Below are positions 54-42,377 of a stretch of 50,188 nucleotides of DNA, in pieces; the stretch's first letter is position 1, and every line of letters begins with the position of its first letter. The notes beneath the pieces were generated by a model. It was not told where the DNA came from, searched no databases, and worked only from the letters and a program-made list of their open reading frames with translations. The translations under genes and the position numbers were made by a program. The DNA lies in NCBI GenBank assembly GCA_017991025.1, contig JAGNMT010000001.1, positions 1-50,188 on the forward strand, read 5' to 3'. Source of the DNA: Verrucomicrobiales bacterium. GTDB lineage: Bacteria; Verrucomicrobiota; Verrucomicrobiia; Verrucomicrobiales; DEV007.

Positions 54-126
54 GCCAACTTAGCTCAGTTGGTAGAGCAGCTGATTTGTAATCAGCCGGT
101 CGTCGGTTCGAGTCCGACAGTTGGCT
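54..126 (+). tRNA. tRNA-Thr (anticodon TGT), CCA not encoded
   Basis: Acceptor stem GCCAACT/AGTTGGC, D-arm TAGCTCAGTTGGTAGAGC, anticodon arm CTGAT-TTGTAAT-CAG, T-loop GGTTCGAGTCC. Confidence 0.97.
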
Positions 127-177
127 TTCTTATTTTCAACGAGTTACGGAGAATCGCAAGCAGGGGCTGGAGACCTT

Positions 178-198
178 GTAACGATTAAGTAACGATTA
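178..198 (+). repeat. Tandem direct repeat GTAACGATTA x2 (candidate integrase arm-type sites)
   Basis: GTAACGATTA at 178-187 and 189-198, between the tRNA 3' end and the integrase start. Confidence 0.6.
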
Positions 199-237
199 GG
201 AATTGATTTTTCCGAAGTTCTCTGATTTCCTGAGGGC

Positions 238-9212: not shown

Positions 9213-9225
9213 GCATCTGACACTG

Positions 9226-11930: not shown

Positions 11931-12013
11931 AGGTGTGACTTTCCAATCAAAGTGCGACTTCGACCTTCAAAAACATGAACAAGCCATGTGAATTGTTTTG
12001 ACCCATTCGGGCT

Positions 12014-12349
12014 ATGCAGGTATTCTTTCGCTCCAAGAAGCTCCAGAAGACGTGTTCCTCCGCAAGGGAGATTCAGAAAGTCTTCGGAGTGGCTCGGGCC
12101 AAGAAGCTCCAGCAACGGTTGCTGGAACTCAGTGCCGCAGACCATCTTGGACAAATCTCCCGACTCCCTCCCGCCCGATGCCATGAAATGACCGGTGACC
12201 GCCAAGGCCAGCTTAGTGTCGACCTCGACCAGCCCTACCGGTTGTTTTTTATCCCCGCCGACGATCCCGTTCCCCGCAGGGCGGACGGTGGCCTCGACTG
12301 GGACGCAGTAACTGCGATCGAGATCATCGAGATCGACGATCCCCATTGA
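12014..12349 (+). CDS. higB: HigB/RelE-like toxin
   Basis: Typical pattern LQK.C...AKKLQQRL...RCHEMTGDRQGQLSVDLDQPYRLFFIP; upstream of higA. Confidence 0.85.
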   Translation: MQVFFRSKKLQKTCSSAREIQKVFGVARAKKLQQRLLELSAADHLGQISRLPPARCHEMTGDRQGQLSVDLDQPYRLFFIPADDPVPRRADGGLDWDAVTAIEIIEIDDPH

Positions 12350-12363
12350 ATTTCCCGACCCCC

Positions 12364-13455: not shown

Positions 13456-13766
13456 GCGGACAAGGACTTTCGACTCGCATGGCTTTCACCGATTCAACCC
13501 TCTCACATCTCCGGCCCAACCCTCTTTGGTCGGAGTTGCCGGAATTCGACCGCAGCGGCTGGAAGCGCTTCCAGTTTGGCAAGATTGCCGAATGCATCGG
13601 GGAGCGGGTTGAGAAGCGGGATGAACCAGCAAAAGCGGTTATGCAGGCCCAGACCGACGCAGCGACTGAGTCGGTCATCACGGCGCTGCCGAATGCCCTG
13701 GCACATTGGGTTCAAAGTGCTGGATCCGTTCTGATACAGCTCAACACTCTCATCTCAGCCAAATGA
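13452..13766 (+). pseudogene. Chimeric remnant ORF: hsdS 5' fragment fused to hsdM2 3' fragment
   Basis: NPLWSELPEFDRSGWKRFQFGKIAECIGERVE matches HsdS NPAWASLPLFDRTGWKRMAFGDFAQSIGERAE; QAQTDAATESVITALPNALAHWVQS...TLISAK* matches HsdM2 QAQTDAAAETATTALPDALAKWLES...TLLSGK*. Confidence 0.88.
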
Positions 13767-14737
13767 ATCTTTCGAAGGAGCAAAACGACGCCGTGGGTTT
13801 CTATGACCAGCACTATTCTATCGTCTTCGATAGCGAACTGACCGTGGGCCGTCACATCAAGTTAGCGGACCAACAAGGCATAGAAGACCGCATTTGTCGG
13901 TTTTGCGGACTTGGAAAGCCAAACGTCACATTCCGTAAAGTTGCCCATGCGGTCCCCGAGTTCCTTGGAAACAAATCGCTCGTCTCCCAAAATGAGTGCG
14001 ATGCCTGTAATGAAAAACTGGCCGACGAATACGAGGATCACCTTTCCAAGTGGTTTGGTCCGATGCGCACTGTATCTCAAATAAGGGGTAAGGGCGGTGT
14101 GCCGACTTACAAGAACAAGGACATTCGTATCGAGATGGGCGAGAAGGGTCTCGAGATTGGAATCATTGGAGAGGAGCTGGAGTCATCTCTAAACTTTGAT
14201 GGCCCGTTCACCTTCAAGATTCCGGTTCCCACTCCTGCCCAAGCGCATGTGCCTTTGAGGGCTGCGAAAGCTCTGTTGAAAGTGGCTTGCTCGATTTGCC
14301 CGCCAGAGCTTTTAAGCGAATGCCAACCGACTATCGAATGGCTTATGTCCCGCGTGAATGCGAGCCTTTCGATGTTTCCCGTGCTGTTTGCGTTTACACC
14401 AGGGCCAAACCCTTATTGCGACGGTAAAGTGTTTTTGCTCCGACGGAAAAGCGATGCGAAGCTGCCTTTCCTTTGGTGTATCTTGGCCACAGCGAATTAT
14501 CGGTTTCAATTCTTCGTCCCGTTCTGCCCGTCAGATACATGGATCACTCCGGGTGAACCCGTCGAACTAACGCCTCCGCATTTTCCTGACGTTTTTGGCG
14601 ACAAGTGGCCACACGGAAAAACTGGATTCGGGGTCTTCGACTGGTCGGGAACCGAACCGGTGGTTCGAGAGCAGTCAGTGAGCTTCAATGTCGATAGCGT
14701 GGAGAAGGTGGACATCAAACCCGACTCTGAAAACTGA
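13763..14737 (+). CDS. HNH endonuclease-like protein (RM-embedded cargo)
   Basis: CRFCG...AHAVPEFLGN...ECDACN zinc/HNH motif; ATG at 13763 overlaps the upstream stop (ATGA); TGATG overlap with hsdS. Confidence 0.78.
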   Translation: MNLSKEQNDAVGFYDQHYSIVFDSELTVGRHIKLADQQGIEDRICRFCGLGKPNVTFRKVAHAVPEFLGNKSLVSQNECDACNEKLADEYEDHLSKWFGPMRTVSQIRGKGGVPTYKNKDIRIEMGEKGLEIGIIGEELESSLNFDGPFTFKIPVPTPAQAHVPLRAAKALLKVACSICPPELLSECQPTIEWLMSRVNASLSMFPVLFAFTPGPNPYCDGKVFLLRRKSDAKLPFLWCILATANYRFQFFVPFCPSDTWITPGEPVELTPPHFPDVFGDKWPHGKTGFGVFDWSGTEPVVREQSVSFNVDSVEKVDIKPDSEN

Positions 14738-15963
14738 TGACATCCGTTGCTCCATTAATTGGGTCCCTCAAGTCAAACCCCGCTTGGGCCTCCCTCCCGC
14801 TCTTCGACCGCACGGGCTGGAAGCGCATGGCCTTCGGTGACTTCGCTCAAAGCATCGGGGAACGGGCGGAGCCGAAGGATGCGCAGGAGGAGATTTATGT
14901 GGGGCTGGAGCATCTGGACCCGCAGTGCCTGCACATCCGGCGCTGGGGGAAGGGCAGCGATGTCATCGGTGGCAAGCTGCGCTTTCGGAAGGGCGACATC
15001 ATCTTTGGCAAACGCCGCGCCTATCAGCGGAAGCTGGCCGTGGCGGAGTTCGGCGGCATCTGCTCCGCACATGCCATGGTCATTCGGGCCAGGCCGGATA
15101 AGGTGCTGCCGGAGTTCCTGCCCTTCCTCATGATGAGCGACCGCTTCATGAACCGCGCCGTCGAGATTTCCGTGGGCTCGCTCTCACCCACCATAAACTG
15201 GACCACGCTCAAGCTGGAGACCTTCGACCTCCCGCCGCTCGACCAGCAGCGGCGCATCGCGGAAATCCTCTGGGCGGTGGATGCAAGCCTGGGTGCGAAT
15301 GATGGGCTTGAATTGTCACTCTTGGAATATCGGCAGGGACTCCTTGATTCAATCGCCCACGAGTATTCAGAGTCCCACGCACTTGCTCCTTTGGACTCTG
15401 CGATCGAGCAAGGCAGACCGATCTGTTATGGTATCCTAATGCCAGGTCTTGGAATTGAGAATGGAATCCCCGTCGTCAAAGTCCGCGACTTTCCTGACGG
15501 TTTTATTCGCGAAGGAGATTTGCTGCAAACTACCCCGGAAATTGAAGCTCCGTATAAGCGGTCGCGATTAAAGAGCGGAGACCTCATCATTTCAATTCGC
15601 GGCACAATCGGCAGAATGGCCGAAGTCCCACCGTCGCTTGATGGTGCAAACATTACACAGGATACGGCGAGACTCTCGATAGCTCCCGAACACAACCGTG
15701 GTTACCTGCGAGCTGTTTTAGAGTCGCGATTTGTTGAGAGACAAATTCAGTCCCGCATCACCGGTCTTGCCGTAAAAGGTATCAACATCGGTGAGTTGAG
15801 ACAAATTCAGATACCACTTCCATCGCGTCGTAAACAGGACGGAATCGCGGAAAAGCTCTCCACGATTTCCACAGCGCAGAGAGCAGCAGCGGCCAATTCG
15901 GCGCAGGTGCGCAGTGTTATAGCCGCCAGCATTGAAAACCTACTTGGAGGACATTCACGATGA
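14737..15963 (+). CDS. hsdS: Type I RM specificity subunit
   Basis: Two TRDs (KGDIIFGK...; SGDLIISIRGTIG) each followed by conserved helices (LPPLDQQRRIAEIL; IPLPSRRKQDGIAEKL). Confidence 0.93.
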   Translation: MTSVAPLIGSLKSNPAWASLPLFDRTGWKRMAFGDFAQSIGERAEPKDAQEEIYVGLEHLDPQCLHIRRWGKGSDVIGGKLRFRKGDIIFGKRRAYQRKLAVAEFGGICSAHAMVIRARPDKVLPEFLPFLMMSDRFMNRAVEISVGSLSPTINWTTLKLETFDLPPLDQQRRIAEILWAVDASLGANDGLELSLLEYRQGLLDSIAHEYSESHALAPLDSAIEQGRPICYGILMPGLGIENGIPVVKVRDFPDGFIREGDLLQTTPEIEAPYKRSRLKSGDLIISIRGTIGRMAEVPPSLDGANITQDTARLSIAPEHNRGYLRAVLESRFVERQIQSRITGLAVKGINIGELRQIQIPLPSRRKQDGIAEKLSTISTAQRAAAANSAQVRSVIAASIENLLGGHSR

Positions 15964-16001
15964 ATTTTACCAAATCCAACACCGTGGAGCTGACGCAATG
16001 A
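15960..16001 (+). pseudogene. 13-codon remnant of the hsdR 5' end
   Basis: Translates MNFTKSNTVELTQ*, versus the true HsdR start MGFNESNTVEQ; overlaps the hsdS stop and the next ATG (ATGA at both ends). Confidence 0.7.
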
Positions 16002-16909
16002 ATAAAAAGCTTTCACCAGCTTTTGTGGAATTGACCCAGGACGCCCTTCTCAAGGCGATCTGGTTCAAGGGGAGTTTGCGGATGTTCTTGATTCAGCATC
16101 AGATCTCAGAGTCAATACTGGCTCAATGGCAGGCCGACCAATCTAAGCGTGATTTTATTAACTGGCTCTGGCCAAGGCTCGTCAAAGACGAGAAGGGTCA
16201 GAACGCGATCTTGGCGATGGCGAGATCGCTCGCCGAAATGAGGCACTTCCCAGACCTCGAGCGAAAGGAAGATACGAAGGAACGGATACCCGAAGCAGTC
16301 GAAGCAATAAATCGACTCAGAGTTGTTGTCTCTGCGGTGAACGAGACAATAAGTGAAACAAAGGCAGCAGAGAAGCGAAGGCAAACTGCACGGGAACAGA
16401 CATCACAGCTACTAGCTGCGATGCAGTCGCTGGAAAAGCTTCAATCCGATCTGAACGCGCTTACTCCAAAAATCGGAACACAGCCAGGTGGATATGAATT
16501 TGAGAAATGGCTCTATGATCTCGCCATATTCTTCGAGCTTGATGCGAGGCCCGGCTACAAGGCCGCTGGTCGTCAAATTGACGGCGCAATTACAATCGAA
16601 GGAACGACATTCCTCCTCGAAGCAAAGCTGGTCAATGCTCCAATCGGATCACCCGACATCGACATCTTCATGGCTAAAATCGAATCGAAGGCAGACAACA
16701 CGATGGGTCTTTTTGTTTCCCTCTCCGGCTTTAATGAGGGCGCTAAGCTGGCTGCGTCAAAGCAACGCACGCCGATGTTGTTACTGGATTCGGGGCACAT
16801 CTTCACCCTGATAATGCGGGGGATCATGACTCTTCCTCAGGTAGTATCACGAATCAAACGTCACGCGCACCAAACCGGCTCCTCCTACCTCAGCGCCGCT
16901 GACTTTTGA
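15998..16909 (+). CDS. Mrr-like restriction endonuclease (RM-embedded cargo)
   Basis: C-terminal Mrr_cat-like pattern YEFEKWL...QIDG...LLEAK...GLFVSLSGF; helical N-terminus. Confidence 0.8.
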   Translation: MNKKLSPAFVELTQDALLKAIWFKGSLRMFLIQHQISESILAQWQADQSKRDFINWLWPRLVKDEKGQNAILAMARSLAEMRHFPDLERKEDTKERIPEAVEAINRLRVVVSAVNETISETKAAEKRRQTAREQTSQLLAAMQSLEKLQSDLNALTPKIGTQPGGYEFEKWLYDLAIFFELDARPGYKAAGRQIDGAITIEGTTFLLEAKLVNAPIGSPDIDIFMAKIESKADNTMGLFVSLSGFNEGAKLAASKQRTPMLLLDSGHIFTLIMRGIMTLPQVVSRIKRHAHQTGSSYLSAADF

Positions 16910-16911
16910 CC

Positions 16912-19902
16912 ATGGGCTTCAACGAATCCAATACCGTCGAGCAGATGATCCTCGACGCCGCAACCAGCCTCGGTAGCGGCTCAGGCTCATCCCTCGTTAG
17001 CGAAGGCCCACCTGCGGGCTGGAGTGGTTCCTTGGGCGAGGAATTCAAGCCTTCGCGCTGGACCTACGAGCCTGCCACAGTGCTACCCCGTCAACCCGGC
17101 GAAGTCATGGTGGAGCCCTGGGTGCGGGAGTCGCTCATCGCCCTGAATCCCGAGATCGCTGAACAACCCGATCGTGCAGACGAGGTGATCTACGCTCTCC
17201 GGGCCATCCTGCTCTCCGTGCAGGGCGACGGGCTGGTGCGGGCGAACGAGAACTTCATGGCCTGGCTGCGCGGGGAGAAGACGATGCCCTTTGGCCCGAA
17301 CGGCGAGCATGTGGCGGTGCGGCTGGTGGATTTCACCCAGCCCGCGAAGAACCGGCTGACGGTGACGAACCAGTGGACCTACCAGACGGGCACCGTGGTG
17401 AAGCGCTTCGACGTGGTCTTTCTGGTGAACGGACTGCCGCTGGTGATCGGCGAGGCGAAGACGCCAACGCGCAGCGCGGTGACGTGGTTCGACGGGGCGT
17501 ATCAGGTGAACGAGATCTACGAGAAGGAGATTCCGGCCATGTTTGTGCCGAACGTTTTCTCCTTTGCCACGGAAGGCCGCGTGCTGCGCTACGGCAGCAT
17601 CCGCATGCCCATCGACCTCTGGGGGCCGTGGCGCGATGAGGAGCATCAGGAGGAGGGCAACCTGGGCCATGTCCGCAAGACGGTGGAAAGTCTCCTGCGG
17701 CCCGGCGTGGTGCTGGACATCCTGCAGAACTTCACCCTCTTCGCCACGGACAAGAAGCACCGGCGCATCAAGGTGATCTGCCGTTACCAGCAATACGAGA
17801 CGACGAACAAGATGATCGCCCGCGTCGTGGCCGGGTATCCGAAGAAGGGCCTCATCTGGCATTTCCAGGGCAGCGGCAAGAGCCTGCTGATGGTCTTCGC
17901 CGCGCAGAAGTTGCGGATGCACCCGAGGCTGGGCAATCCCACGGTGCTGATCGTGGTGGACCGCATCGACCTCGACACCCAGATCAGCGCCACCTTCAAC
18001 GCGGCGGACGTGCCGAACATGGTGGGCGTGGGCGACCGGCAGGAACTGCAACGGCTGATCAATCAGGACGTGCGCAAGGTGCTGATCACGACCATCCACA
18101 AGTTCGGCGAGGCCACGGGCGAATGGAACGCCCGCAAGAACATCATCGTGATGGTGGACGAGGCGCACCGCACGCAGGAGGGCGACCTGGGCCGCAAGAT
18201 GCGCGAGGCGTTGCCGAATGCCTTTCTCTTTGGCCTGACCGGCACGCCTATCAACCGGGCCGACCGCAACACTTTCTGGGCCTTCGGCGCGGACGAGGAC
18301 AGCGCGGGCTACCTCAGCCGCTATTCGTTCCAGGATTCCATCCGCGACAAGGCGACGCTGCCGCTGCACTTCGAAGCGCCGACGGTGAAGCTCAAGATCG
18401 ACAAGGCGGCCATCGACGAGGCCTTCAAGCAGATCACCGACGACATGAGCGAGCAGGATCGCGACGATCTCGCGAAACGCGCCGCGAAGATGGCCGTGCT
18501 GGTGAAGAACCCGGAACGCGTGCGGGCCGTGGTGGAGCACATTGTGCAGCATTACCAGACCAAGGTGGAGCCGAACGGCTTCAAAGCGCAGGTGGTGTGC
18601 TTCGACCGCGAATGCTGCGTGCTCTACAAGCAGGTGATGGACGAGATCATCGGCCCCGAGGCCAGCGCCGTCGTCATGAGCTCGGGGCAGAAGGATCCGC
18701 CGGGATGGAGCGTCCACCTCCGCGACAAGGACGCCGAGGAGAAACTGCTCGACCGCTTCCGCGATCCAGTCGATCCGCTGAAGTTTGTCATCGTGACGAG
18801 CAAGCTGCTCACCGGCTTCGACGCGCCGATCCTCCAGGCCATGTACCTCGACAAGCCGATGAGGGATCACAATCTCCTCCAGGCCATCTGCCGGGTGAAC
18901 CGCACCTACGGCCAGATGAAGACCCACGGTCTCATCGTGGATTACATCGGCATCTTCGACGACGTGGCCCAGGCCCTGGACTTCGACGAGAAGGCGGTGC
19001 AGCAGGTCGTGAGCAACATCGACGAGCTGCGCAAGGCCCTGCCAGTGCAGGTGCAGAAGTGCCTGGCCTTCTTTCCCGGTGTGGACCGCAGCGTGGGAGG
19101 CTACGAAGGCCTCATGGAAGCCCAGCAATGCTTGCCGGACAACGCCACCCGCGACAAGTTCGCTGGCGAATACAGCGTGCTCGGCACGATCTGGGAGGCC
19201 CTTTCCCCCGACCCCTGTCTCGGAGCCTATGCGCCGGACTACAAATGGCTGACTCAGGTCTATGAATCGGTGAAGCCGGTGAGCGGCAACGGAAAACTGC
19301 TCTGGCATCGGCTCGGCGCCAAGACCATCGAACTCATCAACGAGAACGTCCACGTCGAAGCGGTGCGCGACGACATTGAGGCCCTCGTCCTCGACGCTGA
19401 CATTCTCGACGGCATCCTCGGCGACGCCAACCCTTCGAAGAAGGCCAAGGAAGTCGAGATCAAACTGATCGCCCGGCTCCGCAAGCACGCCGGCAACCCC
19501 AAATTCACCGAACTCGGCGAACGACTCGAAAAGGTGCGAGAGCGCCACGAACAGGGGCTGCTCAACAGCCTGGAATTCCTCAAGGCAATCCTCGAGATCG
19601 CCAAGGAAGTCGTCGAGGCCGAGAACCGGGTCGATCCCGAGGAGGAACAGGACCGCGCCATCGCCGCGCTCACGGAGCTGTTCAACGAAGTGAAAAACAA
19701 AAGCACGCACGTCATCGTCGAGCGTCTCGTCGCCGACATCGATGCGATCGTGCGGCAGATTCGCTTCGACGGTTGGCAGGCCACCTCCGCCGGGGAGCGC
19801 GAGGTGCAGAAGGCGCTACGCTCAACTTTGAGGAAGTTCCAGCTTCACACTGATCAGGAACTCTTTGAGAAGGCCTACGGATACATTCGGCAGTATTATT
19901 GA
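16912..19902 (+). CDS. hsdR: Type I RM restriction subunit
   Basis: Nuclease FDVVFLVNGLPLVIGEAK, Walker A WHFQGSGKS, VDEAHR, LTGTP, LLTGFDAP, LLQAICRVNR. Confidence 0.96.
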   Translation: MGFNESNTVEQMILDAATSLGSGSGSSLVSEGPPAGWSGSLGEEFKPSRWTYEPATVLPRQPGEVMVEPWVRESLIALNPEIAEQPDRADEVIYALRAILLSVQGDGLVRANENFMAWLRGEKTMPFGPNGEHVAVRLVDFTQPAKNRLTVTNQWTYQTGTVVKRFDVVFLVNGLPLVIGEAKTPTRSAVTWFDGAYQVNEIYEKEIPAMFVPNVFSFATEGRVLRYGSIRMPIDLWGPWRDEEHQEEGNLGHVRKTVESLLRPGVVLDILQNFTLFATDKKHRRIKVICRYQQYETTNKMIARVVAGYPKKGLIWHFQGSGKSLLMVFAAQKLRMHPRLGNPTVLIVVDRIDLDTQISATFNAADVPNMVGVGDRQELQRLINQDVRKVLITTIHKFGEATGEWNARKNIIVMVDEAHRTQEGDLGRKMREALPNAFLFGLTGTPINRADRNTFWAFGADEDSAGYLSRYSFQDSIRDKATLPLHFEAPTVKLKIDKAAIDEAFKQITDDMSEQDRDDLAKRAAKMAVLVKNPERVRAVVEHIVQHYQTKVEPNGFKAQVVCFDRECCVLYKQVMDEIIGPEASAVVMSSGQKDPPGWSVHLRDKDAEEKLLDRFRDPVDPLKFVIVTSKLLTGFDAPILQAMYLDKPMRDHNLLQAICRVNRTYGQMKTHGLIVDYIGIFDDVAQALDFDEKAVQQVVSNIDELRKALPVQVQKCLAFFPGVDRSVGGYEGLMEAQQCLPDNATRDKFAGEYSVLGTIWEALSPDPCLGAYAPDYKWLTQVYESVKPVSGNGKLLWHRLGAKTIELINENVHVEAVRDDIEALVLDADILDGILGDANPSKKAKEVEIKLIARLRKHAGNPKFTELGERLEKVRERHEQGLLNSLEFLKAILEIAKEVVEAENRVDPEEEQDRAIAALTELFNEVKNKSTHVIVERLVADIDAIVRQIRFDGWQATSAGEREVQKALRSTLRKFQLHTDQELFEKAYGYIRQYY

Positions 19903-19939
19903 GCAGCAGCTCGTCAGAGAAAAACTCGAAAGAGATCCA

Positions 19940-20872
19940 ATGCCCTCACACTGCGACATTAACGAACGATGCATCAGTCAGCTTCGCAATGTAGGCCTCG
20001 AGGGATATTTCGCAGTAATTGGTTCAGGGCCTTCAAGTCGCTTTATAGCGAGCATTGAGAAACTAGAGGAAAAGCTGGGATCGCTCGTAGGGATTGAAAA
20101 AAAGCAGGAACAACATTTCTGGGACTACACCCAGGACGTTTTCGATGCGCTGCAAGGAAACACCAATCAATATTTTTCTGCAATTCGAGAAACCTACGGC
20201 GATTCCTTCCAATGGACGGCACGAATTTATGAACAGATCGCCTTTCTTCCAGTAAAGGGCTTTGCAACCCTAAATTATGATGATCAACTACCACATGCCT
20301 TTCGGCTACGCCATGAAGATCGCGAAGCTAGACGCTTTTACCTTTATCCGCATCCCGCTGTAAATTTTCCGCGGTCACTTAGCGACCTACTCAGCGATCA
20401 ACCACAGCTCATAGCACTTCACGGTTACGCTGACGAAAACAACCCCACTTGGGAGAGGGAGATAATCCTTAAGCGGTCGGATTACAACAGGTATTACTCT
20501 GGCCATGGCGCACCCCTCGCGTCATGGTGGCGCGAAATCCTCCTCAACATCCCCTGTCTTTTCATTGGAACAAAGCTTTACGAACCGGGAATCAAACTGG
20601 TTATTAACCAGTTCGACGACCGTGACCTTGAGCGGCTTCGATCACAAAAACACGTTCACCTTGTCGGAGTGAACAAATCCTCGGAGATCGATACTTCAAA
20701 AACCTTCGGTCTAATTGACAGAGTGTCTTACAAAAAGCTCGATAGAGATCACAAAGGGCTTTGCAAAATCCTTTCAGACCTGAACGGACTACCTCCTTAC
20801 TCAGTGCATCAATCTCTCCCGACACCGTCCTCAATTAATCCTGGCTTCGATCCGAATGCTTCTATCTTATGA
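19940..20872 (+). CDS. SIR2-like domain protein (putative NADase effector)
   Basis: VIGSGPS, TLNYDD, LHG, ILKRSDY, LFIG.KL.EP.I follow the SIR2_2 motif order; start uncertain (ORF open from 19865). Confidence 0.8.
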   Translation: MPSHCDINERCISQLRNVGLEGYFAVIGSGPSSRFIASIEKLEEKLGSLVGIEKKQEQHFWDYTQDVFDALQGNTNQYFSAIRETYGDSFQWTARIYEQIAFLPVKGFATLNYDDQLPHAFRLRHEDREARRFYLYPHPAVNFPRSLSDLLSDQPQLIALHGYADENNPTWEREIILKRSDYNRYYSGHGAPLASWWREILLNIPCLFIGTKLYEPGIKLVINQFDDRDLERLRSQKHVHLVGVNKSSEIDTSKTFGLIDRVSYKKLDRDHKGLCKILSDLNGLPPYSVHQSLPTPSSINPGFDPNASIL

Positions 20873-23835
20873 GCCTGCGTGAAAAATTGAACAGAATCCG
20901 ACAGGAGGCCCACTCTCTTGATTCATGCCCTCAACCTGATGTCCTCGTCGATTTGATTGAAGAAGGCAACCCATGGGACCTTATGTTCTTCCGGGAGCTT
21001 CGTGATCCGAGGTGGCTTCCAATCCTCCAGCGGGCGGGCTTCTTTGATCGCTTACCCACAACGATTATCGACCTTGAAGGACGCGAAACCTATCCCTATA
21101 GCTTGCCACTTACCGGACTCTACAACATCGCAGAAACTGCGCCCGTTGACGTAACCCGCACATTGTTGCGTCTAAAACTTACGCCGAACCCTGTCGTCCT
21201 CGATCAAGTTCTCCGAGTAATTGCGAAGATCCAAGATCAAATGTCCATACATTTAGTCTCGGCCATTGTCTGCGTGATTGCCTCAGCCCCCAGATTCTCG
21301 AACATCCTTTGGCTCGAAGAGGTCTTAAAGAAGTGGATCGAGACGAACAACCACGCCACCGCGTTAGATGCCCTAAATAATCTCTTTCTTGCAACGGCGG
21401 GATTATCCCCCAAGGAGCTGTCTCGAGTAGATGAGTCCAGATTACTGGAAATCGATAGTGAGGTTTTTTCAAAGGTTTGCGAGGTCCTCCCGCACGAATC
21501 GGCCGAAGTCGCTTTTCGAGCATTACAAAAGTGGGCTGCATCCCAGAGGACCGACGATGACCGAGACACGTTATCGATTCCACAGAATCAACTCGAGGAG
21601 TGGGGGCCGGATTTTGATAACCCGGGGACCTTCTGGCTTAGGGATTTCACTTCTAGATCCGCGAATGAATTCTCGATCGAGACCACCCTGTCCCATCGTC
21701 TTTACGCGGCAGTCGATCTGGTTTTTAGCCGTGGTCTCGACGTAGAACGAGTCGATCGAATGCTCCGTTCTGATCCTTGGCATTTGTTCCGCCGTCTCCG
21801 CTGGAAGATATATTCCGTCCACCCGGCAGCCTCCCTCGATTGGGCCCGGGAAGAGGTTCTTATTAGGGCCGTCTATTTTAACCGTATCGATCACAAGCAC
21901 GAGAGCGAGTTTGCGGAAATGGTGGAGCGTTTCTCAGAAGATTTTGGGACGGCCTTTCTCAATGAATCTCAGGTTGAGATAATTTGTGAAACGATTCATT
22001 CTGGCCCACTCACTGAGACCGGAACATTGGATGAAGACGAAAAGTATCGAAAGCGATTTTTCCGAGATCAGTTGGCTCCATTTGCGAACCTTTTCGATAC
22101 ACCGCAACTTGAGTTTTATAAGAATCTGATTGAGAAGGCGGGACAAGCGCCCGAATACGATGGTTCATGGAGTGGTGGTACGGTCGAGTTTCGAGAGATC
22201 CGCGAGGCATCCCCGTTTACGGAAGCGCAGCTGTCAGAAATGGAGATCTCAGTCTTGTGGGGCACTCTGAATGACTGGAAGCCGTCTCAACAGCAGAGAA
22301 ATAGGAGTGAATGGTGGAGGGAAGAGTCGGAGCGGGCGCTCGCCACAACCTTCTCAGATTTGGTGTTCAACAATCCCGCTAGATTCTCTTTGGAATCGCA
22401 GTGGTGGACAAACATCAGCCGTCCTTCTGTTTTAGAGCGGATCATTGATCGGGCGACAGATCGGATAGGAAAATCTGAATCGAGCGAGTCCAATGCCACT
22501 CAGTTCTTCGACCATGGAATAATATTTCCCATCTGCCTGAAGCTAATGGAATGCGCGGAAAAATCGCGAGATGAGGCATTGACTAAAGAGGGAAGCAAAA
22601 ATGAACTTTTGAGAGTCTGGGATTGGCCTCGCCTGGCCGTCGCGCGATTTATTTCAACGGCTTTGGAGTCAAAGGAGTTCAAATGGCAGGACTACGAGCG
22701 AGAGTTGAAGTCTCTGCTTCCCGGGTTGCTCGACTGCCGACACCGATCAACACAAACTGCTGGCCGGTCATGGCTTCACGACTGGTACACGACTGCGATT
22801 AATTCGGCATCCGGCATTGCATTCGAAGCGCTTCTTAGGCTAACTCATCGACAGAAGGAATCTGGTGCATCCCTAGAACCATCCTCGTGGGCGCTTGATA
22901 TGGCGAATACGTCTTTGAAACAGAAAGTAGAGTGCGAGGAAATTTATGCGGTTGCCGGAGCACGGCTTCGACTCATGGCATATCTTTTTCCTGATATGGT
23001 GAAAGAGGTAACAAGATTAGGATTTCGACAGGATTCTAAGGATTTGGAATTCATCTTAATCGTATCACATATGTGTTACGACCAACCAAGTCCCCAACTT
23101 TTGGAGCGTGTTCCGGGTCTCCTTGAAGAATCAATGCGCTGTCTTCGAGATTTCTCAGAAATCGATGAAAAGACGGATCATCGAACCCGCGATTTCGGAT
23201 TTCGATTCGGCTATCATTTATCGTGGTATTTTTGGAATAACTTTCTACCTGAGTCAGATGCGGATCGTCTTTTGGATGAGTATTTTTCTACAGCAGATGA
23301 ATCCAGTCGAAGGAAACTGATCAGTCAGATTGCTAGTATGTTTCGGGATGTCGCGAGTGCGGAGGAACAACCCCTTGTCTCCCGCGTCATGAAGCTCGGG
23401 CGCAGGAGATTTTCGGCGATTCAAGAAGCCGTTGAAGCAAGCCCCGAACTGGCTTCCGGATTCAGTGGAGAACTAGAGGAGTTTCTTGACTGGGTGGAAT
23501 GTGACTGCTTTCCGTTCCAGTGGCGAATCGATCTCGCACTCGATGCGACGCGCTATCTCGCGAGAGCTCCCCAGGCATTTTTGCTGTTTGATAAACTTGA
23601 AGAGTTCTCCAGGGACCCTGATAAGCTGCCAAGCGTGCTAGAACTTCTAAGTAAGCTAGTTTACCTCGATTCGAATGAAATGCGGTGGGCCTACAAAGAT
23701 GGGGTGGTTAAAGAGATGCTCGTGCGAGCATATGCGTCCATGAATTCAAGATGCCGCAATCTTGGTGAAAGAATTCAGGAGAAACTCTTAATGGAGGGCT
23801 TCTTTGACTACCTTGATATCGACCCAGGCAGTTGA
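20869..23835 (+). CDS. Large (988 aa) predicted alpha-helical hypothetical protein coupled to the SIR2 gene
   Basis: Long open frame, ATGA overlap with the SIR2 gene, Trp/Leu-rich helical pattern, no P-loop seen. Confidence 0.8.
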   Translation: MSLREKLNRIRQEAHSLDSCPQPDVLVDLIEEGNPWDLMFFRELRDPRWLPILQRAGFFDRLPTTIIDLEGRETYPYSLPLTGLYNIAETAPVDVTRTLLRLKLTPNPVVLDQVLRVIAKIQDQMSIHLVSAIVCVIASAPRFSNILWLEEVLKKWIETNNHATALDALNNLFLATAGLSPKELSRVDESRLLEIDSEVFSKVCEVLPHESAEVAFRALQKWAASQRTDDDRDTLSIPQNQLEEWGPDFDNPGTFWLRDFTSRSANEFSIETTLSHRLYAAVDLVFSRGLDVERVDRMLRSDPWHLFRRLRWKIYSVHPAASLDWAREEVLIRAVYFNRIDHKHESEFAEMVERFSEDFGTAFLNESQVEIICETIHSGPLTETGTLDEDEKYRKRFFRDQLAPFANLFDTPQLEFYKNLIEKAGQAPEYDGSWSGGTVEFREIREASPFTEAQLSEMEISVLWGTLNDWKPSQQQRNRSEWWREESERALATTFSDLVFNNPARFSLESQWWTNISRPSVLERIIDRATDRIGKSESSESNATQFFDHGIIFPICLKLMECAEKSRDEALTKEGSKNELLRVWDWPRLAVARFISTALESKEFKWQDYERELKSLLPGLLDCRHRSTQTAGRSWLHDWYTTAINSASGIAFEALLRLTHRQKESGASLEPSSWALDMANTSLKQKVECEEIYAVAGARLRLMAYLFPDMVKEVTRLGFRQDSKDLEFILIVSHMCYDQPSPQLLERVPGLLEESMRCLRDFSEIDEKTDHRTRDFGFRFGYHLSWYFWNNFLPESDADRLLDEYFSTADESSRRKLISQIASMFRDVASAEEQPLVSRVMKLGRRRFSAIQEAVEASPELASGFSGELEEFLDWVECDCFPFQWRIDLALDATRYLARAPQAFLLFDKLEEFSRDPDKLPSVLELLSKLVYLDSNEMRWAYKDGVVKEMLVRAYASMNSRCRNLGERIQEKLLMEGFFDYLDIDPGS

Positions 23836-23855: not shown

Positions 23856-24671
23856 TCAACTCGCCATCTCGTCCTGCACATACCGTCTGAACTCCCCGAC
23901 TGCCGTGAAGCACCTGAAACCGGCCTGGCTCGCGAACCAGTCGAGGTTGAAGTGAAAGTCCGCCTTGGCCCAGTCCTTCAGTTTGGCCTTCATCGCGTCG
24001 CGTCCCTCGGGCCATTCGGCGCAGATCTTCGCGAGGGCGAGATCGCCTTTGGAGAGCTTGGTGCCGCCACTGTTGACCCGGTTGAAGATATCGACCACGA
24101 CATCCAGCGACTTGTCGGCACCCGTCACTTCCTCGATGTGAAGGTCGATGTCAGTGACGCCAAGAAGACGGCTGAGACGCGCCACGTAGTCGCCAACGCG
24201 GGTGACGTGGACGGGATCGGCGCTCAAGCGGGTAACAAACTCTCCGAGTCCGGCGGTGCCCTTCTTCATCAGTTCCGTCACATCGATCCAAAGCGAATCG
24301 TCCTTCATCTTCACCGGCTGGTAGAACTCGAAGCTCTCAGATTCCAGGTGGAAGCGGAGGCCGGTGAAGGCCTGCGCGTTGCCGTCGAAAAACTTCGGTG
24401 GTCTTCCGCGAACGACTCCGTAGAGTGATGTCATTCTTTGCTGTCCGTCGAGGAGCAACTTCACGACGCCGGCCGCGAGAACTCCATCACCCCGGTGGGT
24501 TGCGCTCTTGGATTCGGTCGCCCAGACGAGGAGACCGCCGACCGGGTGGCGACGATAGAGGGAATCGAAGAGACCACGGACCTGCTCCCGGTTCCAGACG
24601 TAGCCGCGCTGGAATTCTGGGAGGGCCATGTGGCCGCTGTCGATGTGGTCAAGGATGGTGGAGATCTTCAT
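23856..24671 (-). pseudogene. DUF262 (GmrS-like) gene, probably 3'-truncated
   Basis: LPEFQRGYVW, LLDGQQRMTSL, IFNRVNSGG.KL motifs; family-like sequence stops after FHFNLDW (~23940); no DUF1524/HNH part follows. Confidence 0.7.
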
Positions 24672-25042
24672 GAAAGGTCGATTGTTCGTCAGACTGGGGG
24701 GACCGCTGGCAGGTGGGTTTGTTTCGGAGGCAGGGAGCAATGGCGGGATTTTCCCGGGCCCGATGTTTGTGTCTCGTGTGGAGGGCCCACCGAGGGTTTA
24801 GCGGGAGACAAGAGATGGCGCAACGAAAATCCGTCTTCGCGGTCGCGGCAATGTGGCTCTCAATCACAGAGGAAAACTATTACAATAACTCAGGGGTGGG
24901 ACCGCCGTGGGGTCACACTGAGACGATTTTTGAAATGAGCCCTGGTGCTCTCTGGGGGCTGACGGCACCTGATTCAGGTGATTGAACCGAAACGATTGAC
25001 AAGGTGGGCTCTAACCTTCAACTAAGAGGGCCGCCGTGACTC

Positions 25043-27040
25043 ATGAATTGGGATTCTCTCTTGCCAAGCCAGTATAGTTTTTTCGACGCCATTCAATCGA
25101 TGGCTAACGGCGAGGCATTTCTCCAAGGATTAACGGACCTCTTCATCCTTGCCACTTGGTGGCTCGGTGCGGTTGTTTTCGTCTGGGCCTTGATCGTGAC
25201 GGCGCTTTCTTTCTCGCGGACCCGTAGGTTCGAACGAGGGCTGCCCAAACCAGGGGGTGCCACTCGTTTTGAAGAGATCAGGGCGGAATGGGTGAAGAGA
25301 AACGGCTCTTTGGCGCACGCCTTTGATGAGTTGCTGGTCGAAGTTCCACGGCCGGGCGCGTCACTTGAACGTGAACTGAGGCGCACCGGAAGTGCCGAGG
25401 AAGTCTTCAACGAATCGAGTCTTGCCCGTAGGATCATCGGGAACCGACTCTTCATGGCAACCCCAGGGATTTTGACAGGGATCGGGGTTCTTGGAACCTT
25501 TGTGGGTCTCGCCTTGGGTATCGGTGCACTTAAACTCGAAGGGTCCGCTATCGAGGATCTCAATTCCAGTATCCTGCCGTTGATTCAGGGTAGTGCCACG
25601 GCCTTCTCAACCTCGGTCTGGGGGGTGGCCACCAGCCTGGTCTTCATGATCCTCGAAAAGTTTCTTGAGGGAGGGGCGCGTTGGCCAATCCGTCGCCTCC
25701 AGGACCGTCTCAATCGTCTCGTTCCGCGTTATCTTCCCGAGCAAAGCATGATCGACCTTCAGCGGTCTTCGATTGAGTCCGAACAGCAACTGAAAGGCTT
25801 GGCGGTGGCGATCGGAGAGCAGATGCAGAAGGCGCTGGATCGGATCGGGACCAGTGTCACAGAGGCAGTGAAGGAGGCTCTCGGTGGCCAAGCGCAGGAT
25901 CTGGGCGAGCAGAGCGCCAAGCTGATGTCCGAGGTGCTGACCCAAGAGCTGGACAATCTCAAGACTGCGATCCTGGACATGGGCGAGGGATTCAAGAGCG
26001 AATTTGGTGGTGCCAATGCCCAGCTCCAGGCAACCGTTTCCGGCTTCGAATCCGTCGTAACGGGACTCAATGCTGCTGTCCAGACAACCCAATCGTCGGT
26101 CGAAAGTGCAGTCAAGCGGCTCGAGGGACACGAGACTGTGGTCACCGCCCTTGGCAGTGCCGCTGTGGCGCTGGACGATGCGGCCGTGAAACTGAGCGCA
26201 ATGCGCGAGACCTTCGAACTGTCGGCCCAACGCAATGCCGAAGCGGCCGAGGCACAGGAGTCTGCTGCCACCAGCAATGTCGCGGTGGCCAAACAGTTTG
26301 AAGAGATCGGTGAGAAACTGCCAGAGACCCGGGATGTAATCAGGGACGCGGCACAGATCATCGGGTCACTGGGGCAGCCGCTTCTCGAACTGAAAGAGAT
26401 CCTCGCGACTACTCCTGAAGTTTTCCAACAGCAAGCGGAGCGTCAGGCCGAAAATGATGAGCTAAGGGCCACACGTCTCCTGACTCAAACCGAGTCGCTC
26501 GCAAAGGCCGTGGCGGAAGCCGCCGAAAAATTTGCCCAGGTCGAGACCATTGGGGAATCCCTCAGCCGGTCCGCAGAAAGTCTGGAATCGGCGGGTGCCT
26601 CCCTCTCGGCCTTTGGCAGCCAGTTTCAGATCGCCTCCGAGTTGCAGGCGGAGTCCGCCGCCTCCGCGGAAAGAGCGGCTGCTTCAAGCGAGAGAGCCGC
26701 CGCAAGCCTGGAACCCATTCCGGATTCCATTGAAAAGCTTGGAGGCGGTCTCCAACTGGCTGGCGCCTCGATGAAGACCGGTGCCGAGGCGGCCCGCGAC
26801 GCCTATGTAACTCTCATTGAGCATCAGAAGCTCTGGTTCCAGGGGGTGGAAACGGGCCTCATGACCATGCGGGATCGTCTGCAAGAATTAATCGAAGCCT
26901 ACGGACAAACCGTCGAGGGTGTGACTCAGGAACACATGAACAACTGGGTGAAGGCTGTTGAAGAGAGCCTGCAAAAATTCTCCGTGCAAGTGGAGTCGCT
27001 CGAAGGAGCACTTAGCGAATTTAACGAAAATCGCTCGTAA
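25043..27040 (+). CDS. zorA: Zorya ZorA (MotA-like membrane subunit with long cytoplasmic tail)
   Basis: Three hydrophobic segments including TGIGVLGTFVGL and AFSTSVWG, then a long Ala/Ser/Glu-rich helical tail; upstream of a MotB-like gene. Confidence 0.9.
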   Translation: MNWDSLLPSQYSFFDAIQSMANGEAFLQGLTDLFILATWWLGAVVFVWALIVTALSFSRTRRFERGLPKPGGATRFEEIRAEWVKRNGSLAHAFDELLVEVPRPGASLERELRRTGSAEEVFNESSLARRIIGNRLFMATPGILTGIGVLGTFVGLALGIGALKLEGSAIEDLNSSILPLIQGSATAFSTSVWGVATSLVFMILEKFLEGGARWPIRRLQDRLNRLVPRYLPEQSMIDLQRSSIESEQQLKGLAVAIGEQMQKALDRIGTSVTEAVKEALGGQAQDLGEQSAKLMSEVLTQELDNLKTAILDMGEGFKSEFGGANAQLQATVSGFESVVTGLNAAVQTTQSSVESAVKRLEGHETVVTALGSAAVALDDAAVKLSAMRETFELSAQRNAEAAEAQESAATSNVAVAKQFEEIGEKLPETRDVIRDAAQIIGSLGQPLLELKEILATTPEVFQQQAERQAENDELRATRLLTQTESLAKAVAEAAEKFAQVETIGESLSRSAESLESAGASLSAFGSQFQIASELQAESAASAERAAASSERAAASLEPIPDSIEKLGGGLQLAGASMKTGAEAARDAYVTLIEHQKLWFQGVETGLMTMRDRLQELIEAYGQTVEGVTQEHMNNWVKAVEESLQKFSVQVESLEGALSEFNENRS

Positions 27041-27045
27041 GGAAC

Positions 27046-27951
27046 ATGTTCGGATCACGAGCCAGCACAAAGCCGCGAAACGGGGAGGAGGAAAACCCTT
27101 TCCTACTTTCCTTTTCCGACCTCATGGCGAGTCTGCTCGCGATCTTCATTTTGGCTTTGATCGTGATGATGATTCAACTTCATCGCAAGCAGCAGGAGCT
27201 GGATCGGGAGACCAAACGGATCAAACTCACCCTGGTCGAACTCCTGGGCAGCCTGGAGGAGATCAAAGAGACCCAGGATGCGATCGACAGCGCTCTGAGC
27301 GGTGTCAGCCTTCGCGAACAGAGTCTCACCGCATTGTTGGAGGGCGTGCAGAAGGATCTGAAGGAAAAGGGAATCGAAGTCATCGTCGCCGAGAACGGAT
27401 CTGTTCTCCGAATTCCAGAACAGGCCCTTTCCTTCGGGCTTGGTAAGTTCGAGATTCAGGAGCAGTTTCATACTACGGCCGATGCGATTGGAACCGCCCT
27501 ATTGGCGGCTCTGCAACGCCCTGAAAATCTTGTCTTACTCGACACCGTCTTCATCGAGGGACACACGGACGCCGTCACGAACCGGCAAGAAATGGGCAAC
27601 TGGGGTCTGAGCGCCTATCGGGCGATTTCGCTTTGGAAATTCTGGACGGAGCTACCCGGCAACTGCGCGCCTTTGAAGGACCTGAAGACCGCCGACCCGA
27701 CCGGAATCGGTGGGGAGAAACCTCTTATCTCAGCGAGTGGCTACGCCGAGACTCGACCCACGGGAATCCCCTCGTCGGAGCCTCAGGTCGAAGGAAGGCC
27801 GAATGCTAATTCGGCAGATCGGCGAATCGACATCCGATTCACCTTGGCCTCTGCCGAAAAGAAAGACCTCGAAGGGCTGGGGGAAAAGGTCTCGGAGATG
27901 CGCGAAAAGACCCAGAAGCTGATTAATCGTCTCAAGGAAAATGAACCCTAG
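27046..27951 (+). CDS. zorB: Zorya ZorB (MotB/OmpA-like)
   Basis: TM helix with conserved Asp (SFSDLMASLL); peptidoglycan-binding motifs EGHTD, NWGLSAYRA, RRIDIRF. Confidence 0.92.
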   Translation: MFGSRASTKPRNGEEENPFLLSFSDLMASLLAIFILALIVMMIQLHRKQQELDRETKRIKLTLVELLGSLEEIKETQDAIDSALSGVSLREQSLTALLEGVQKDLKEKGIEVIVAENGSVLRIPEQALSFGLGKFEIQEQFHTTADAIGTALLAALQRPENLVLLDTVFIEGHTDAVTNRQEMGNWGLSAYRAISLWKFWTELPGNCAPLKDLKTADPTGIGGEKPLISASGYAETRPTGIPSSEPQVEGRPNANSADRRIDIRFTLASAEKKDLEGLGEKVSEMREKTQKLINRLKENEP

Positions 27952-29365
27952 GCTACCTGCCAACGAGATTTATGAGCTGAGGCCGCTACGGAACCCGCGG
28001 CTGTCGGGTAGTCATGCCCTGGCCTCGATCCTGAAGCTACAGGAGATCACTCCTGACTGCGACGGAGCCGGCGCTGAGAATATGAAGAACCGCGTCGAAG
28101 AGTTGAGACATCGTCTGCAGACATCCAGACAGAACGGGTGGAGCTGGTGGGACGCAACGAATGTCCCACGACGCGAGTGGACCCTGCTGCGACTCTACTC
28201 TCTACACTTGGGAACCACAGGATCAGACGAGTGGCTTTGTGAGCTTGACGATACGGTTGCGGAATCAGTGCTGGGAACAGACGGTCGAAGGTGGCACCCA
28301 TCCCGCCGCCGTGATGTGACGAACCTTTTTTTTGTTCAGTTCGACCGAATCGCCGCCCTTCGCTACGTCGCCCACCTGTTGGTTAAGGCGTGGCAAGCTG
28401 AAGAGAAAGTTTCGCGTGACGAGTCATCCCGGATCTGGAAAGAAAAAGCGGGAATACTTTTCGATTTGGATGGACCGAATCGTGTCGCGGGTTTTTGGCA
28501 GGAGGGAGAAAATGTCGACAATTTAGCTGATCGTTTTGCCATTCCGAAAACTTCACTATTTCGTGAGATGCTCTTCCAATCTGTCCTGCTCCGACGATTG
28601 CGTGCGATCCGTCTCTTCGAGGTCAATCGAGAGCTTTTTCGGGAGATTGAGAATTCCAAGGAGACCAGATTCCGACACGGTCGCACGCTCGGAAGTTGTG
28701 CAGTCGAGATTCTTGTGGAGCGAGTTATGAAGGAAGCAAAGGAACTCTGGGAGCCCGCCTGGAGCAGACAACTCGTTCCCTTCGCTTGTGATCCGAGAAC
28801 TTTGAATTTGGCTGAACGCGAACGTTGGTGGGGCTGGGCTAATCAGGATCAACGCAAAGCAGCGGTGAAAGCGCTGACTGGACTGAATATCAAAGAGTTC
28901 ATCCGCCTGCTCAAGGATAGCCTCAGTGAGACAGGGAACGAGCATCAGTTTAAGCGCCGAAGCGATTTCTTACTTTGGATGTTCGCGAGTGGCCTGATTG
29001 AGGACGCCAAACTCGTCGTCCATGCTGATTTGTACGGAAACATCGACACGGCGACAAAGCAGAGTCTCCAACCCTCACGCAGTCAAGGCGGCGGGCAGCG
29101 GACGAGTTTCGTATGCCTGAAATGTGCCGGAGGGGTCAGTTTGATCGAAGGCACTCACAACTTTGGTCTTCGTGGATTTCGGGAAGGGCGATTCCCGATC
29201 AACAATTTCTGGGAGTTGGCTCCTCGGGCATTCGAGGATGGGTCTCTTCGGGTGAGTGAAAATCGATGCGACATCTATCAGCGGCATTCAGGTGAGTGGG
29301 AGAGCTCGTTTCTTGATAAACTCCGAAGAATACTGCGTATCGAATGGCCACGCTTTAGGAGATAA
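27941..29365 (+). CDS. zorC: Zorya ZorC (EH-signature protein)
   Basis: Position between zorB and a SNF2 helicase; DPR, RRSDFL, IEGTHN and terminal H.G.WE motifs. Confidence 0.8.
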   Translation: MNPRLPANEIYELRPLRNPRLSGSHALASILKLQEITPDCDGAGAENMKNRVEELRHRLQTSRQNGWSWWDATNVPRREWTLLRLYSLHLGTTGSDEWLCELDDTVAESVLGTDGRRWHPSRRRDVTNLFFVQFDRIAALRYVAHLLVKAWQAEEKVSRDESSRIWKEKAGILFDLDGPNRVAGFWQEGENVDNLADRFAIPKTSLFREMLFQSVLLRRLRAIRLFEVNRELFREIENSKETRFRHGRTLGSCAVEILVERVMKEAKELWEPAWSRQLVPFACDPRTLNLAERERWWGWANQDQRKAAVKALTGLNIKEFIRLLKDSLSETGNEHQFKRRSDFLLWMFASGLIEDAKLVVHADLYGNIDTATKQSLQPSRSQGGGQRTSFVCLKCAGGVSLIEGTHNFGLRGFREGRFPINNFWELAPRAFEDGSLRVSENRCDIYQRHSGEWESSFLDKLRRILRIEWPRFRR

Positions 29366-29372
29366 GTTCTCG

Positions 29373-42300: not shown

Positions 42301-42377
42301 CGGTGGGATTCTAGCACCGATCGCGGCACTTTTTTCACTTTTTGAAAGGGGAGGGTCCACGGCAGTCCCACCCCCTG

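What the first reader, a model, noticed from the sequence alone, without database searches (positions are those of the whole stretch)
19940..23835. SIR2 effector plus separate 988-aa helical partner: candidate two-gene (split DSR-like) defence system
Seen: a stand-alone SIR2-like gene with TLNYD and LHG motifs, ATGA-coupled to a large Trp-rich helical protein with no NTPase motif (notable segments FFRELRDPRWLPIL..AGFF and TTAINSASGIAFEALL), directly after hsdR; together ~1300 aa. Established: SIR2 NADases are effectors in Thoeris, DSR1/2, SIR2-HerA, SIR2-pAgo and Avs, but no TIR, HerA, pAgo or STAND partner is present here. Inference: the big protein is a sensor/scaffold resembling the non-catalytic body of single-chain DSR-type proteins (from memory, unverified), here encoded separately. 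This is my strongest candidate for an undescribed system.
Basis: partly seen in the sequence, partly recalled or inferred. Interest (0 to 1): 0.85.

Follow-up and report, generated by a model that had tools for sequence, protein, structure and literature searches.

The report
Split Dsr1-type anti-phage sirtuin pair
Two overlapping genes encode, as separate proteins, a sirtuin-type enzyme and a large helical protein related to the phage-capsid sensor of the known one-protein defence system Dsr1, so they likely form a two-piece version that is predicted to destroy the infected cell's NAD+: a real but recurring variant of a known system, not a new kind.

Summary
Both genes and the ATGA overlap are real. 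Contigs of 4 of 4 runs cross the junction without an indel. All 20 related loci whose helical gene starts on its own carry a coupled SIR2 gene upstream, so this is no frameshift. The 988-aa protein is an all-helical solenoid homologous to the non-catalytic body of Dsr1: 38 of 48 relatives hit PADLOC Dsr1, and profile matches to a fused Dsr1-type protein and to a STAND-protein sensor reach 98-99% probability. Lee et al. 2026 (PMC13581612) show that Avs7 and Dsr1 share this sensor and are triggered by phage major capsid protein; their methods mention 'split proteins'. Likely mechanism: capsid binding by the sensor switches on the separately made SIR2 NADase. Binding, trigger and defence are untested here. 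One twist: this sensor is much closer to nuclease-fused sensors (31%) than to a Dsr1-clade sensor (19%, patchy), so the pair may be an effector swap, not a simple fission. The scan noted split Dsr1-like pairs in at least 7 other genomes. Verdict: new variant of a known kind; interest 0.3.

The parts
19940..20872 (+). SIR2 (sirtuin) NADase-type effector gene, 310 aa; an alternative TTG start at 19865 overlaps hsdR, but homologues begin near the ATG
   Evidence: Pfam SIR2_2 E 3.7e-11; AlphaFold model pLDDT 84.7; best folds ThsA Z 19.8 (rmsd 3.4, 251 aligned), KomC Z 18.6, Avs5 Z 16; alignment A5
20273..20275 (+). Asn112 codon; aligns with DSR2 N133, a residue mutated to inactivate DSR2
   Evidence: profile alignment to DSR2 chain 8wkt_A (numbering counted by hand); mutant named in 10.1101/2021.12.14.472415
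20420..20422 (+). His161 codon; aligns with DSR2 H171; invariant in 18 of 18 paired SIR2 sequences
20786..20869 (+). Proline-rich, low-confidence C-terminal tail of the SIR2 protein (about residues 283-310), kept in the family; candidate docking tail (inferred)
   Evidence: family alignment, consensus, pLDDT about 50 and no secondary structure
20869..20872 (+). ATGA stop-start overlap (translational coupling)
   Evidence: bridged without indel in 4 of 4 laid runs; gaps of -4 to +5 nt in related pairs
20869..23835 (+). 988-aa all-helical solenoid, homologue of the Dsr1/Avs7 sensor domain, with no effector or NTPase of its own
   Evidence: PADLOC Dsr1 E 4e-5; 38 of 48 relatives hit it, best 4e-48; hhalign 99.1% to a fused SIR2 protein and 98.5% to a STAND-protein C-terminus; model pLDDT 90.5, pTM 0.81
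16906..19902 (+). hsdR of the type I restriction-modification cluster just upstream (context, not part of the system)
   Evidence: Pfam HSDR_N and others; 84% DNA match in a same-genus genome ends at the hsdR stop, where a different gene follows

Best explanation
The two coupled genes encode, as separate chains, a SIR2 enzyme and a helical protein homologous to the Dsr1/Avs7 sensor, and they likely work as a two-piece Dsr1: the sensor is predicted to bind phage major capsid protein and would then switch on the bound SIR2, which would hydrolyse NAD+ and block phage replication. Shown here: two intact genes, conserved pairing and coupling, sensor homology, sirtuin fold with the catalytic Asn and His, and a place in a tRNA-integrated defence island. 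Shown in print for relatives: capsid triggers EcDsr1 and SeAvs7, and DSR1 depletes NAD+ (transiently, in the one system tested). Inferred: that the two chains form a complex, probably through the SIR2 C-terminal end and the first helices of the sensor, where fused relatives are joined; that capsid-driven clamping of the two lobes frees or oligomerises the SIR2; and that this lineage senses capsid. Rough odds by step: natural two-gene unit 0.95, Dsr1/Avs7-sensor homology 0.93, anti-phage NADase 0.85, direct complex 0.75, capsid as trigger 0.6.
For: Pairing: of 66 loci classified, 18 have a stand-alone sensor with a SIR2 gene directly upstream. Two more binned 'other' do too (L014; L075, contig-cut). 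That is 20 of 20 loci whose sensor starts on its own, or 17 distinct complete pairs after duplicates, one in a single-contig genome (G060). Identities to the window are 19-40% for SIR2 and 18-33% for the sensor. Homology. Boundary: in Vibrio coralliilyticus pOCN014 and in G442 the two genes tile the Dsr1 model as 5-301 plus 311-1213 and 5-301 plus 310-1206. Modularity: 29 of 66 loci fuse the sensor to a pP_pnuc_1-like domain and 2 to PIN. Haloarchaeal NTPase proteins carry it from about residue 556, like the SeAvs7 sensor at 561-1523. Effector. Context: tRNA and integrase, McrBC, type I R-M, PDC-S54, Zorya I. Literature: PMC13581612 sections 6, 8, 10; 10.1101/2021.12.14.472415 passages.
Against: The window's own sensor scores weakly against Dsr1 (19.5 bits), and 10 of 48 relatives do not hit at E 0.01. 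Its SIR2 hits no Dsr1 model and is closer to ThsA by profile and fold; six other members of its clade also hit no Dsr1 model, while L014's more distant SIR2 does weakly. At about 18-20% identity the sensed phage protein may differ from that of EcDsr1. No Dsr1 or Avs7 structure came up in the fold searches. Two close pairs (L044, L046) have Asp in place of the catalytic Asn. One contig (L043) joins SIR2 and sensor in frame through a 248-nt deletion.
Confidence: 0.72

Rival explanations
1. Toxin-antitoxin (guard) logic: the free SIR2 is active by default and the helical protein holds it off; phage binding to, or loss of, the helical protein releases it. Parts and output are the same, but the sign of control is reversed.
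For: Separate chains with translational coupling suit stoichiometric neutralisation. Apo Avs7 is autoinhibited by contacts of the sensor C-lobe with the effector (PMC13581612 section 10). In 401 phylum genomes the strong SIR2-clade hits (above 200 bits) were only the three beside a sensor, though these three were in the profile.
Against: The SIR2 gene comes first, and fused relatives cannot release the effector from the chain. No toxicity data exist.
Confidence: 0.15
2. A two-gene anti-phage NADase system whose sensor has drifted to a trigger other than major capsid protein (another structural protein, or a host factor).
For: Only 19% patchy identity to a Dsr1-clade sensor and 15-19% in profile alignments. 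The fold searches give only generic helical-repeat matches, including Avs4, a portal sensor, at Z 10.5, rmsd 9.9, 677 aligned.
Against: Capsid sensing is kept between SeAvs7 and EcDsr1, which fall in distinct sensor clades (PMC12803255 passage), and recognition rests on broad shape complementarity.
Confidence: 0.1
3. Sequencing error or recent frameshift in a single fused Dsr1 gene.
For: The two ORFs sum to about 1,300 aa, a Dsr1 length; in-frame fused SIR2-sensor proteins exist; L043 is an in-frame join within this clade.
Against: The junction is intact in 4 of 4 runs. The same split, with its own start codon and a -4 to +5 gap, holds in 17 distinct pairs at 18-40% identity. L043 equals L044/L045 minus 248 nt and loses the last conserved strand and helix of SIR2 and the first sensor helices. 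None of the 42 long sensor relatives has a SIR2 N-terminus.
Confidence: 0.02

Closest known systems
Dsr1 / DSR1 (defence-associated sirtuin 1; PADLOC PDLC04166; Garb et al. 10.1101/2021.12.14.472415; Lee et al. PMC13581612)
   Same: N-terminal SIR2 followed by a homologous helical sensor of about 920-990 aa without an NTPase; same domain order and boundary; defence-island setting.
   Different: Two genes instead of one. The window's SIR2 does not hit any Dsr1 model, and its sensor is closer to nuclease-fused sensors than to the Dsr1 clade.
Avs7 (STAND capsid sensor; Lee et al. PMC13581612)
   Same: Shared sensor by the paper; here the sensor profile matches the C-terminal 900 aa of haloarchaeal NTPase proteins of the same layout. 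I did not test that these are Avs7.
   Different: No STAND NTPase, so ATP-driven tetramerisation cannot apply; NADase, not Cap4 nuclease.
NTPase-less HEPN-like/PIN-fused Avs7-sensor proteins (noted in PMC13581612 and PMC12803255)
   Same: The closest relatives of the 988-aa protein with a different layout (31% over 967 aa).
   Different: Their effector is a fused nuclease-like domain (pP_pnuc_1 mostly below the Pfam cut-off, or PIN_12), not a separate SIR2.
DSR2
   Same: SIR2 NADase with the same Asn and His, regulated by a helical sensor of a phage structural protein.
   Different: No sequence or fold match of the 988-aa protein to DSR2 chains came up; DSR2 is single-chain and senses tail tube.
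Thoeris ThsA, SIR2-HerA, SPARSA, Kongming KomC
   Same: Separately encoded or modular SIR2 effectors; ThsA and KomC are the best fold matches of ORF1.
   Different: ORF1 has no SLOG domain, and no TIR, HerA, pAgo or HAM1 gene showed in the family scans of neighbouring ORFs.

Membership tests
Dsr1 | N-terminal SIR2 domain with intact catalytic Asn and His | tested here: met
   Pfam SIR2_2 above cut-off; N112 and H161 align with DSR2 N133 and H171
Dsr1 | C-terminal helical sensor homologous to the Dsr1/Avs7 sensor | tested here: met
   PDLC04166 hit by the window protein (E 4e-5) and 38 of 48 relatives, across model positions 286-1219; hhalign 97-99%
Dsr1 | Single polypeptide (SIR2 fused to sensor) | tested here: not met
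   Two ORFs in different frames; junction intact in 4 of 4 runs; split conserved
Dsr1 | SIR2 domain of the Dsr1 sequence clade | tested here: inconclusive
   No Dsr1 model hit for ORF1; profile matches to Dsr1-type SIR2 domains only E 4e-8 and 7e-9; no tree could be built
Dsr1 | Bilobed, sharply bent sensor fold as in Avs7/Dsr1 | tested here: inconclusive
   The model is an all-helical solenoid with one low-confidence linker at 433-438; the fold searches listed no Dsr1 or Avs7 chain to compare with
Dsr1 | Activation by phage major capsid protein and NAD+ depletion on infection | not testable with these tools
   Needs experiments; shown for EcDsr1 (PMC13581612) and for DSR1 in B. subtilis
Avs7 | STAND NTPase between effector and sensor | tested here: not met
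   No NTPase family in either ORF; the sensor starts at residue 1
DSR2 | DSR2 middle and C-terminal sensor domains | tested here: inconclusive
   The 85-row sensor profile hits no DSR2 chain, although DSR2 chains are in that library; DSR2 not listed in the fold searches
Thoeris | ThsA with SLOG or Macro domain plus a TIR (ThsB) gene | tested here: not met
   ORF1 is SIR2 only (310 aa); no TIR among the neighbouring ORFs scanned

The most novel reading that the evidence does not exclude
This lineage is not a broken Dsr1 but a capsid sensor from the nuclease-fused branch that lost its fused nuclease and took on a separately encoded SIR2, docking through a conserved proline-rich tail. The sensor would then be a plug-in receptor whose effector can be swapped in trans, reached at least twice independently: by fission in Vibrio-type Dsr1 pairs and by recruitment here.
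Probability: 0.35. Interest if true: 0.55.

Novelty: new variant of a known kind. Interest (0 to 1): 0.3.

Why it matters
How Dsr1-type sensors without an NTPase switch on their effector is not worked out in the paper sections I read, which resolve only the Avs7 mechanism. A natural two-chain version lets the enzyme and the sensor be purified, titrated and swapped separately, so it can be tested directly whether the sensor activates or inhibits the NADase. In practice, single-gene Dsr1 models score this pair weakly or not at all, so such pairs are likely undercounted. It does not open a new class of defence.

Tried and rejected
Frameshift or assembly error: rejected. DSR2-like body: no sequence or fold match; absence from a fold list does not exclude it. 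Fold searches of the 988-aa model gave only generic HEAT/ARM solenoids (best Z 11.7, Foldseek TM 0.24 or less); the Avs7 structures named in the paper (9YIX, 9N00, 9N01) did not appear, and I could not check whether the libraries hold them. Caspase-9 hits at E 0.1 or worse are noise. DUF4020: no hit on the window protein, and no paper in the library holds the term. Fused forms of this SIR2 clade: a 'longer' search found 1 weak hit, which the tool calls weak evidence. Viral contigs and phage records: no relative found. E. coli genomes, DNA search with the Vibrio pair: no match. Promoter and terminator scans were at shuffle level. No RNA holder listed. Complex prediction of SIR2 with the sensor was not available, so there is no verdict on binding. 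No family tree was built, so the fission-versus-recruitment question rests on pairwise and profile scores only. The upstream genes of the 16 distant stand-alone sensors of alignment A4 could not be read, so other separately encoded effectors are not excluded. Supplementary Table 8 of PMC13581612, which lists 9,097 sensor proteins and may already class split SIR2 forms, was not among the readable files; the 7 readable files hold none of 'split', 'Dsr1', 'SIR2'.
Full report
Observation. The window holds a 310-aa ORF at 19940-20872 and a 988-aa ORF at 20869-23835, both on the + strand, joined by an ATGA overlap and starting 37 nt after the hsdR stop. ORF1 hits Pfam SIR2_2 (E 3.7e-11). ORF2 hits nothing in Pfam or NCBIfam, and one PADLOC Dsr1 model weakly (E 4e-5, residues 440-725). 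Each is single-copy in the assembly. Their GC (47%, 50%) is below hsdR (62%) and the genome (57%).

The junction is real. 19 of 24 listed runs, from 10 studies, hold at least 90% of the sampled words; 14 are flagged as possible sources. I laid 4 of them, from 4 studies: each has a contig crossing the junction with no indel, and there is one substitution in all. These are contigs of possibly the same strain, so the stronger proof is conservation.

Family of the large protein. A full-library search gave 359 hits at E 0.001 or better. Of the proteins then held (the 150 listed plus earlier ones), 44 were 900-1,049 aa and 42 were 1,050 aa or longer. I scanned 39 of the 42 long ones: 8 have PIN_12, 21 have a weak pP_pnuc_1 hit (2 above the cut-off) and 10 have neither. 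None matched my SIR2 profile. Calling the pP_pnuc_1-like domain 'HEPN-like' is my inference, prompted by the paper's HEPN-like example.

Gene neighbours. Of 66 loci classified, 29 have the sensor fused to the pP_pnuc_1-like domain, 2 fused to PIN, 18 stand-alone with a SIR2 gene directly upstream, and 17 'other'. Of those 17, L014 has a more distant SIR2 upstream, L075 has the cut end of one, L043 is a deletion join (below), and 14 are fragments or broken genes without an intact start. So 20 of 20 loci with a free-standing sensor start have SIR2 upstream; dropping L045 and L058 as duplicates and L075 as cut leaves 17 distinct complete pairs. Gaps are -4 to +5 nt; for L024, L044 and L045 I corrected the start by hand from the -104 and -97 printed. 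The search patterns came from stand-alone sensors alone, not from SIR2. Named hosts of the closest split pairs are Verrucomicrobiota MAGs, and one pair lies in a single-contig genome (G060). Against: L043 is 100% identical to L044/L045 except for a 248-nt deletion that fuses SIR2 and sensor in frame while removing conserved parts of both; I read it as an assembly artefact or a damaged allele.

What the large protein is. AlphaFold gives an all-helical solenoid, pLDDT 90.5, pTM 0.81, with one soft linker at 433-438. Fold searches return only generic helical repeats; the Atlas lists unnamed bacterial clusters of 955-974 aa first. Sequence profiles settle it. 38 of 48 relatives hit PADLOC Dsr1 PDLC04166, best E 4e-48, across model positions 286-1219, that is, all but the SIR2 part. 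The family profile aligns over 872 columns to residues 319-1317 of a fused B. mycoides SIR2 protein (99.1%) that is a strong Dsr1 hit. It also aligns over 760 columns to residues 560-1380 of a haloarchaeal NTPase protein (98.5%; AAA/STAND hits).

Literature. Lee et al., Nature 2026 (PMC13581612; I read the abstract, outline, sections 6, 8, 10, 52 and passages) report that the Avs7 sensor is shared by Dsr1 and other NTPase-less defence proteins, that major capsid protein is the sole activator of SeAvs7 and EcDsr1 in a ZL19 gene screen, and that capsid binding clamps the two sensor lobes and relieves autoinhibition in Avs7. The preprint versions (passages only) add that the NTPase-less proteins carry NADases, nucleases and kinases. 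[quoted passage not shown] Garb et al. (10.1101/2021.12.14.472415, passages) show transient NAD+ depletion by DSR1 without culture collapse, and name the DSR2 mutants N133A and H171A. PMC10952713 (passages) lists DSR1 as a Sir2 system. Eight searches (listings only) showed no paper devoted to a two-gene Dsr1; most subscription papers are not in this library.

The effector. The SIR2 model (pLDDT 84.7) matches antiphage sirtuins best: ThsA Z 19.8, KomC 18.6, Avs5 16, ahead of deacetylases at about 11. N112 and H161 align with DSR2 N133 and H171. H161 is invariant in 18 of 18 rows; the Asn is Asp in two. A proline-rich unstructured tail of about 25 residues is kept through the clade. It sits where fused relatives have their linker, so a docking role is plausible but untested.

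Split forms recur. A Vibrio coralliilyticus plasmid pair (WP_040122581.1 and WP_040122582.1) and a pair in G442 tile the Dsr1 model at 5-301 and about 310-1210. G623 has a stand-alone sensor at E 9e-290 behind a damaged-looking SIR2 ORF, and G568 has another pair. G647 and G227 carry fused forms. These look like direct fissions of Dsr1. The window's lineage differs: its SIR2 clade hits no Dsr1 model, and its sensor is 31% identical over 967 aa to a nuclease-fused sensor but 19% over 227 aa to the Dsr1-clade sensor of G623. This favours an independent origin by effector exchange, but without a tree the direction is not established.

Distribution and setting. The sensor profile matched 8 of 401 genomes of the window's phylum and 17 of 401 of a second phylum. 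None of the listed matches from 39 relatives falls inside the two genes. In G403, similarity ends at the hsdR stop and a different ORF begins at the same 37-nt distance, so this is a variable cargo slot. The window is a tRNA-integrated defence island: tRNA 54-126, integrase, McrBC, type I R-M, PDC-S54, Mrr and HNH genes, Zorya I, ABC-three-component genes.

Mechanism. Most likely the sensor binds newly made capsid protein between its lobes, and the change in shape activates or clusters the docked SIR2, which hydrolyses NAD+. The parts, pairing and homology are shown; complex formation, trigger and defence are inferred. The main rival keeps the parts but reverses the logic, with the sensor as antitoxin.

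Verdict. It works like Dsr1 but fails the single-chain criterion, so it is a new variant of a known kind. The scan's own notes list split Dsr1-like pairs in at least 7 other genomes; these are unchecked AI notes, found after my reading was fixed, and a sequence look-up found none of them similar to this protein. Interest 0.3.

Noticed in passing
window 54-1542: tRNA gene followed by a phage-type integrase: the window looks like the left end of a tRNA-integrated defence island.
   Followed up: partly
window 25043-32819: Complete type I Zorya (zorA-D by PADLOC), with a long 1,187-aa ZorD ORF ending in an Mrr-like nuclease.
   Followed up: no
window 7719-19902: Type I R-M cluster with two hsdM-like genes (read from the translations, not scanned) and cargo between its genes: PDC-S54 (9226-10446, E 8e-147), a toxin-antitoxin-like HTH/IrrE pair (12014-13455; the small gene had no Pfam hit), HNH_5 (13706-14737) and Mrr_cat (15932-16909).
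   Followed up: no
window 23856-24740 (-): ORF with only the GmrSD N-terminal (DUF262-type) domain, apparently truncated just after the sensor gene; a same-genus genome (G423) matches 23934-24672 at 74%.
   Followed up: partly
window 19903-19939 and L112:4510-4546: In the window and in G403 similarity stops at the hsdR stop codon, yet the next, different gene starts after exactly 37 nt in both; may be chance or a cassette slot.
   Followed up: partly
window 34858-38568 (-) and 38905-40392 (-): A 1,236-aa HIT-helicase-HNH-S24 fusion and a phosphatase-ADP-ribosylglycohydrolase fusion beside a WYL regulator (41239-42360), inside the island.
   Followed up: no
window 43217-46881: ABC-three-component genes (CTD7 and DUF3732/AAA_23); calling them Lamassu-like is from memory.
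   Followed up: no
L011:183-5119 and L110:3001-6861: Sensor-family genes interrupted by insertion sequences: a nuclease-fused one in G369 (transposase read from its translation) and one on a Legionella plasmid (IS3 annotated).
   Followed up: no
L044:2832-3755 and L046:2807-3724: Paired SIR2 genes with Asp in place of the catalytic Asn of the TxNYD motif.
   Followed up: no
L152:3669-4631: ORF that fuses a PemK/MazF-like N-terminus to a partial SIR2 upstream of a stand-alone Dsr1-clade sensor; looks damaged or misassembled.
   Followed up: no
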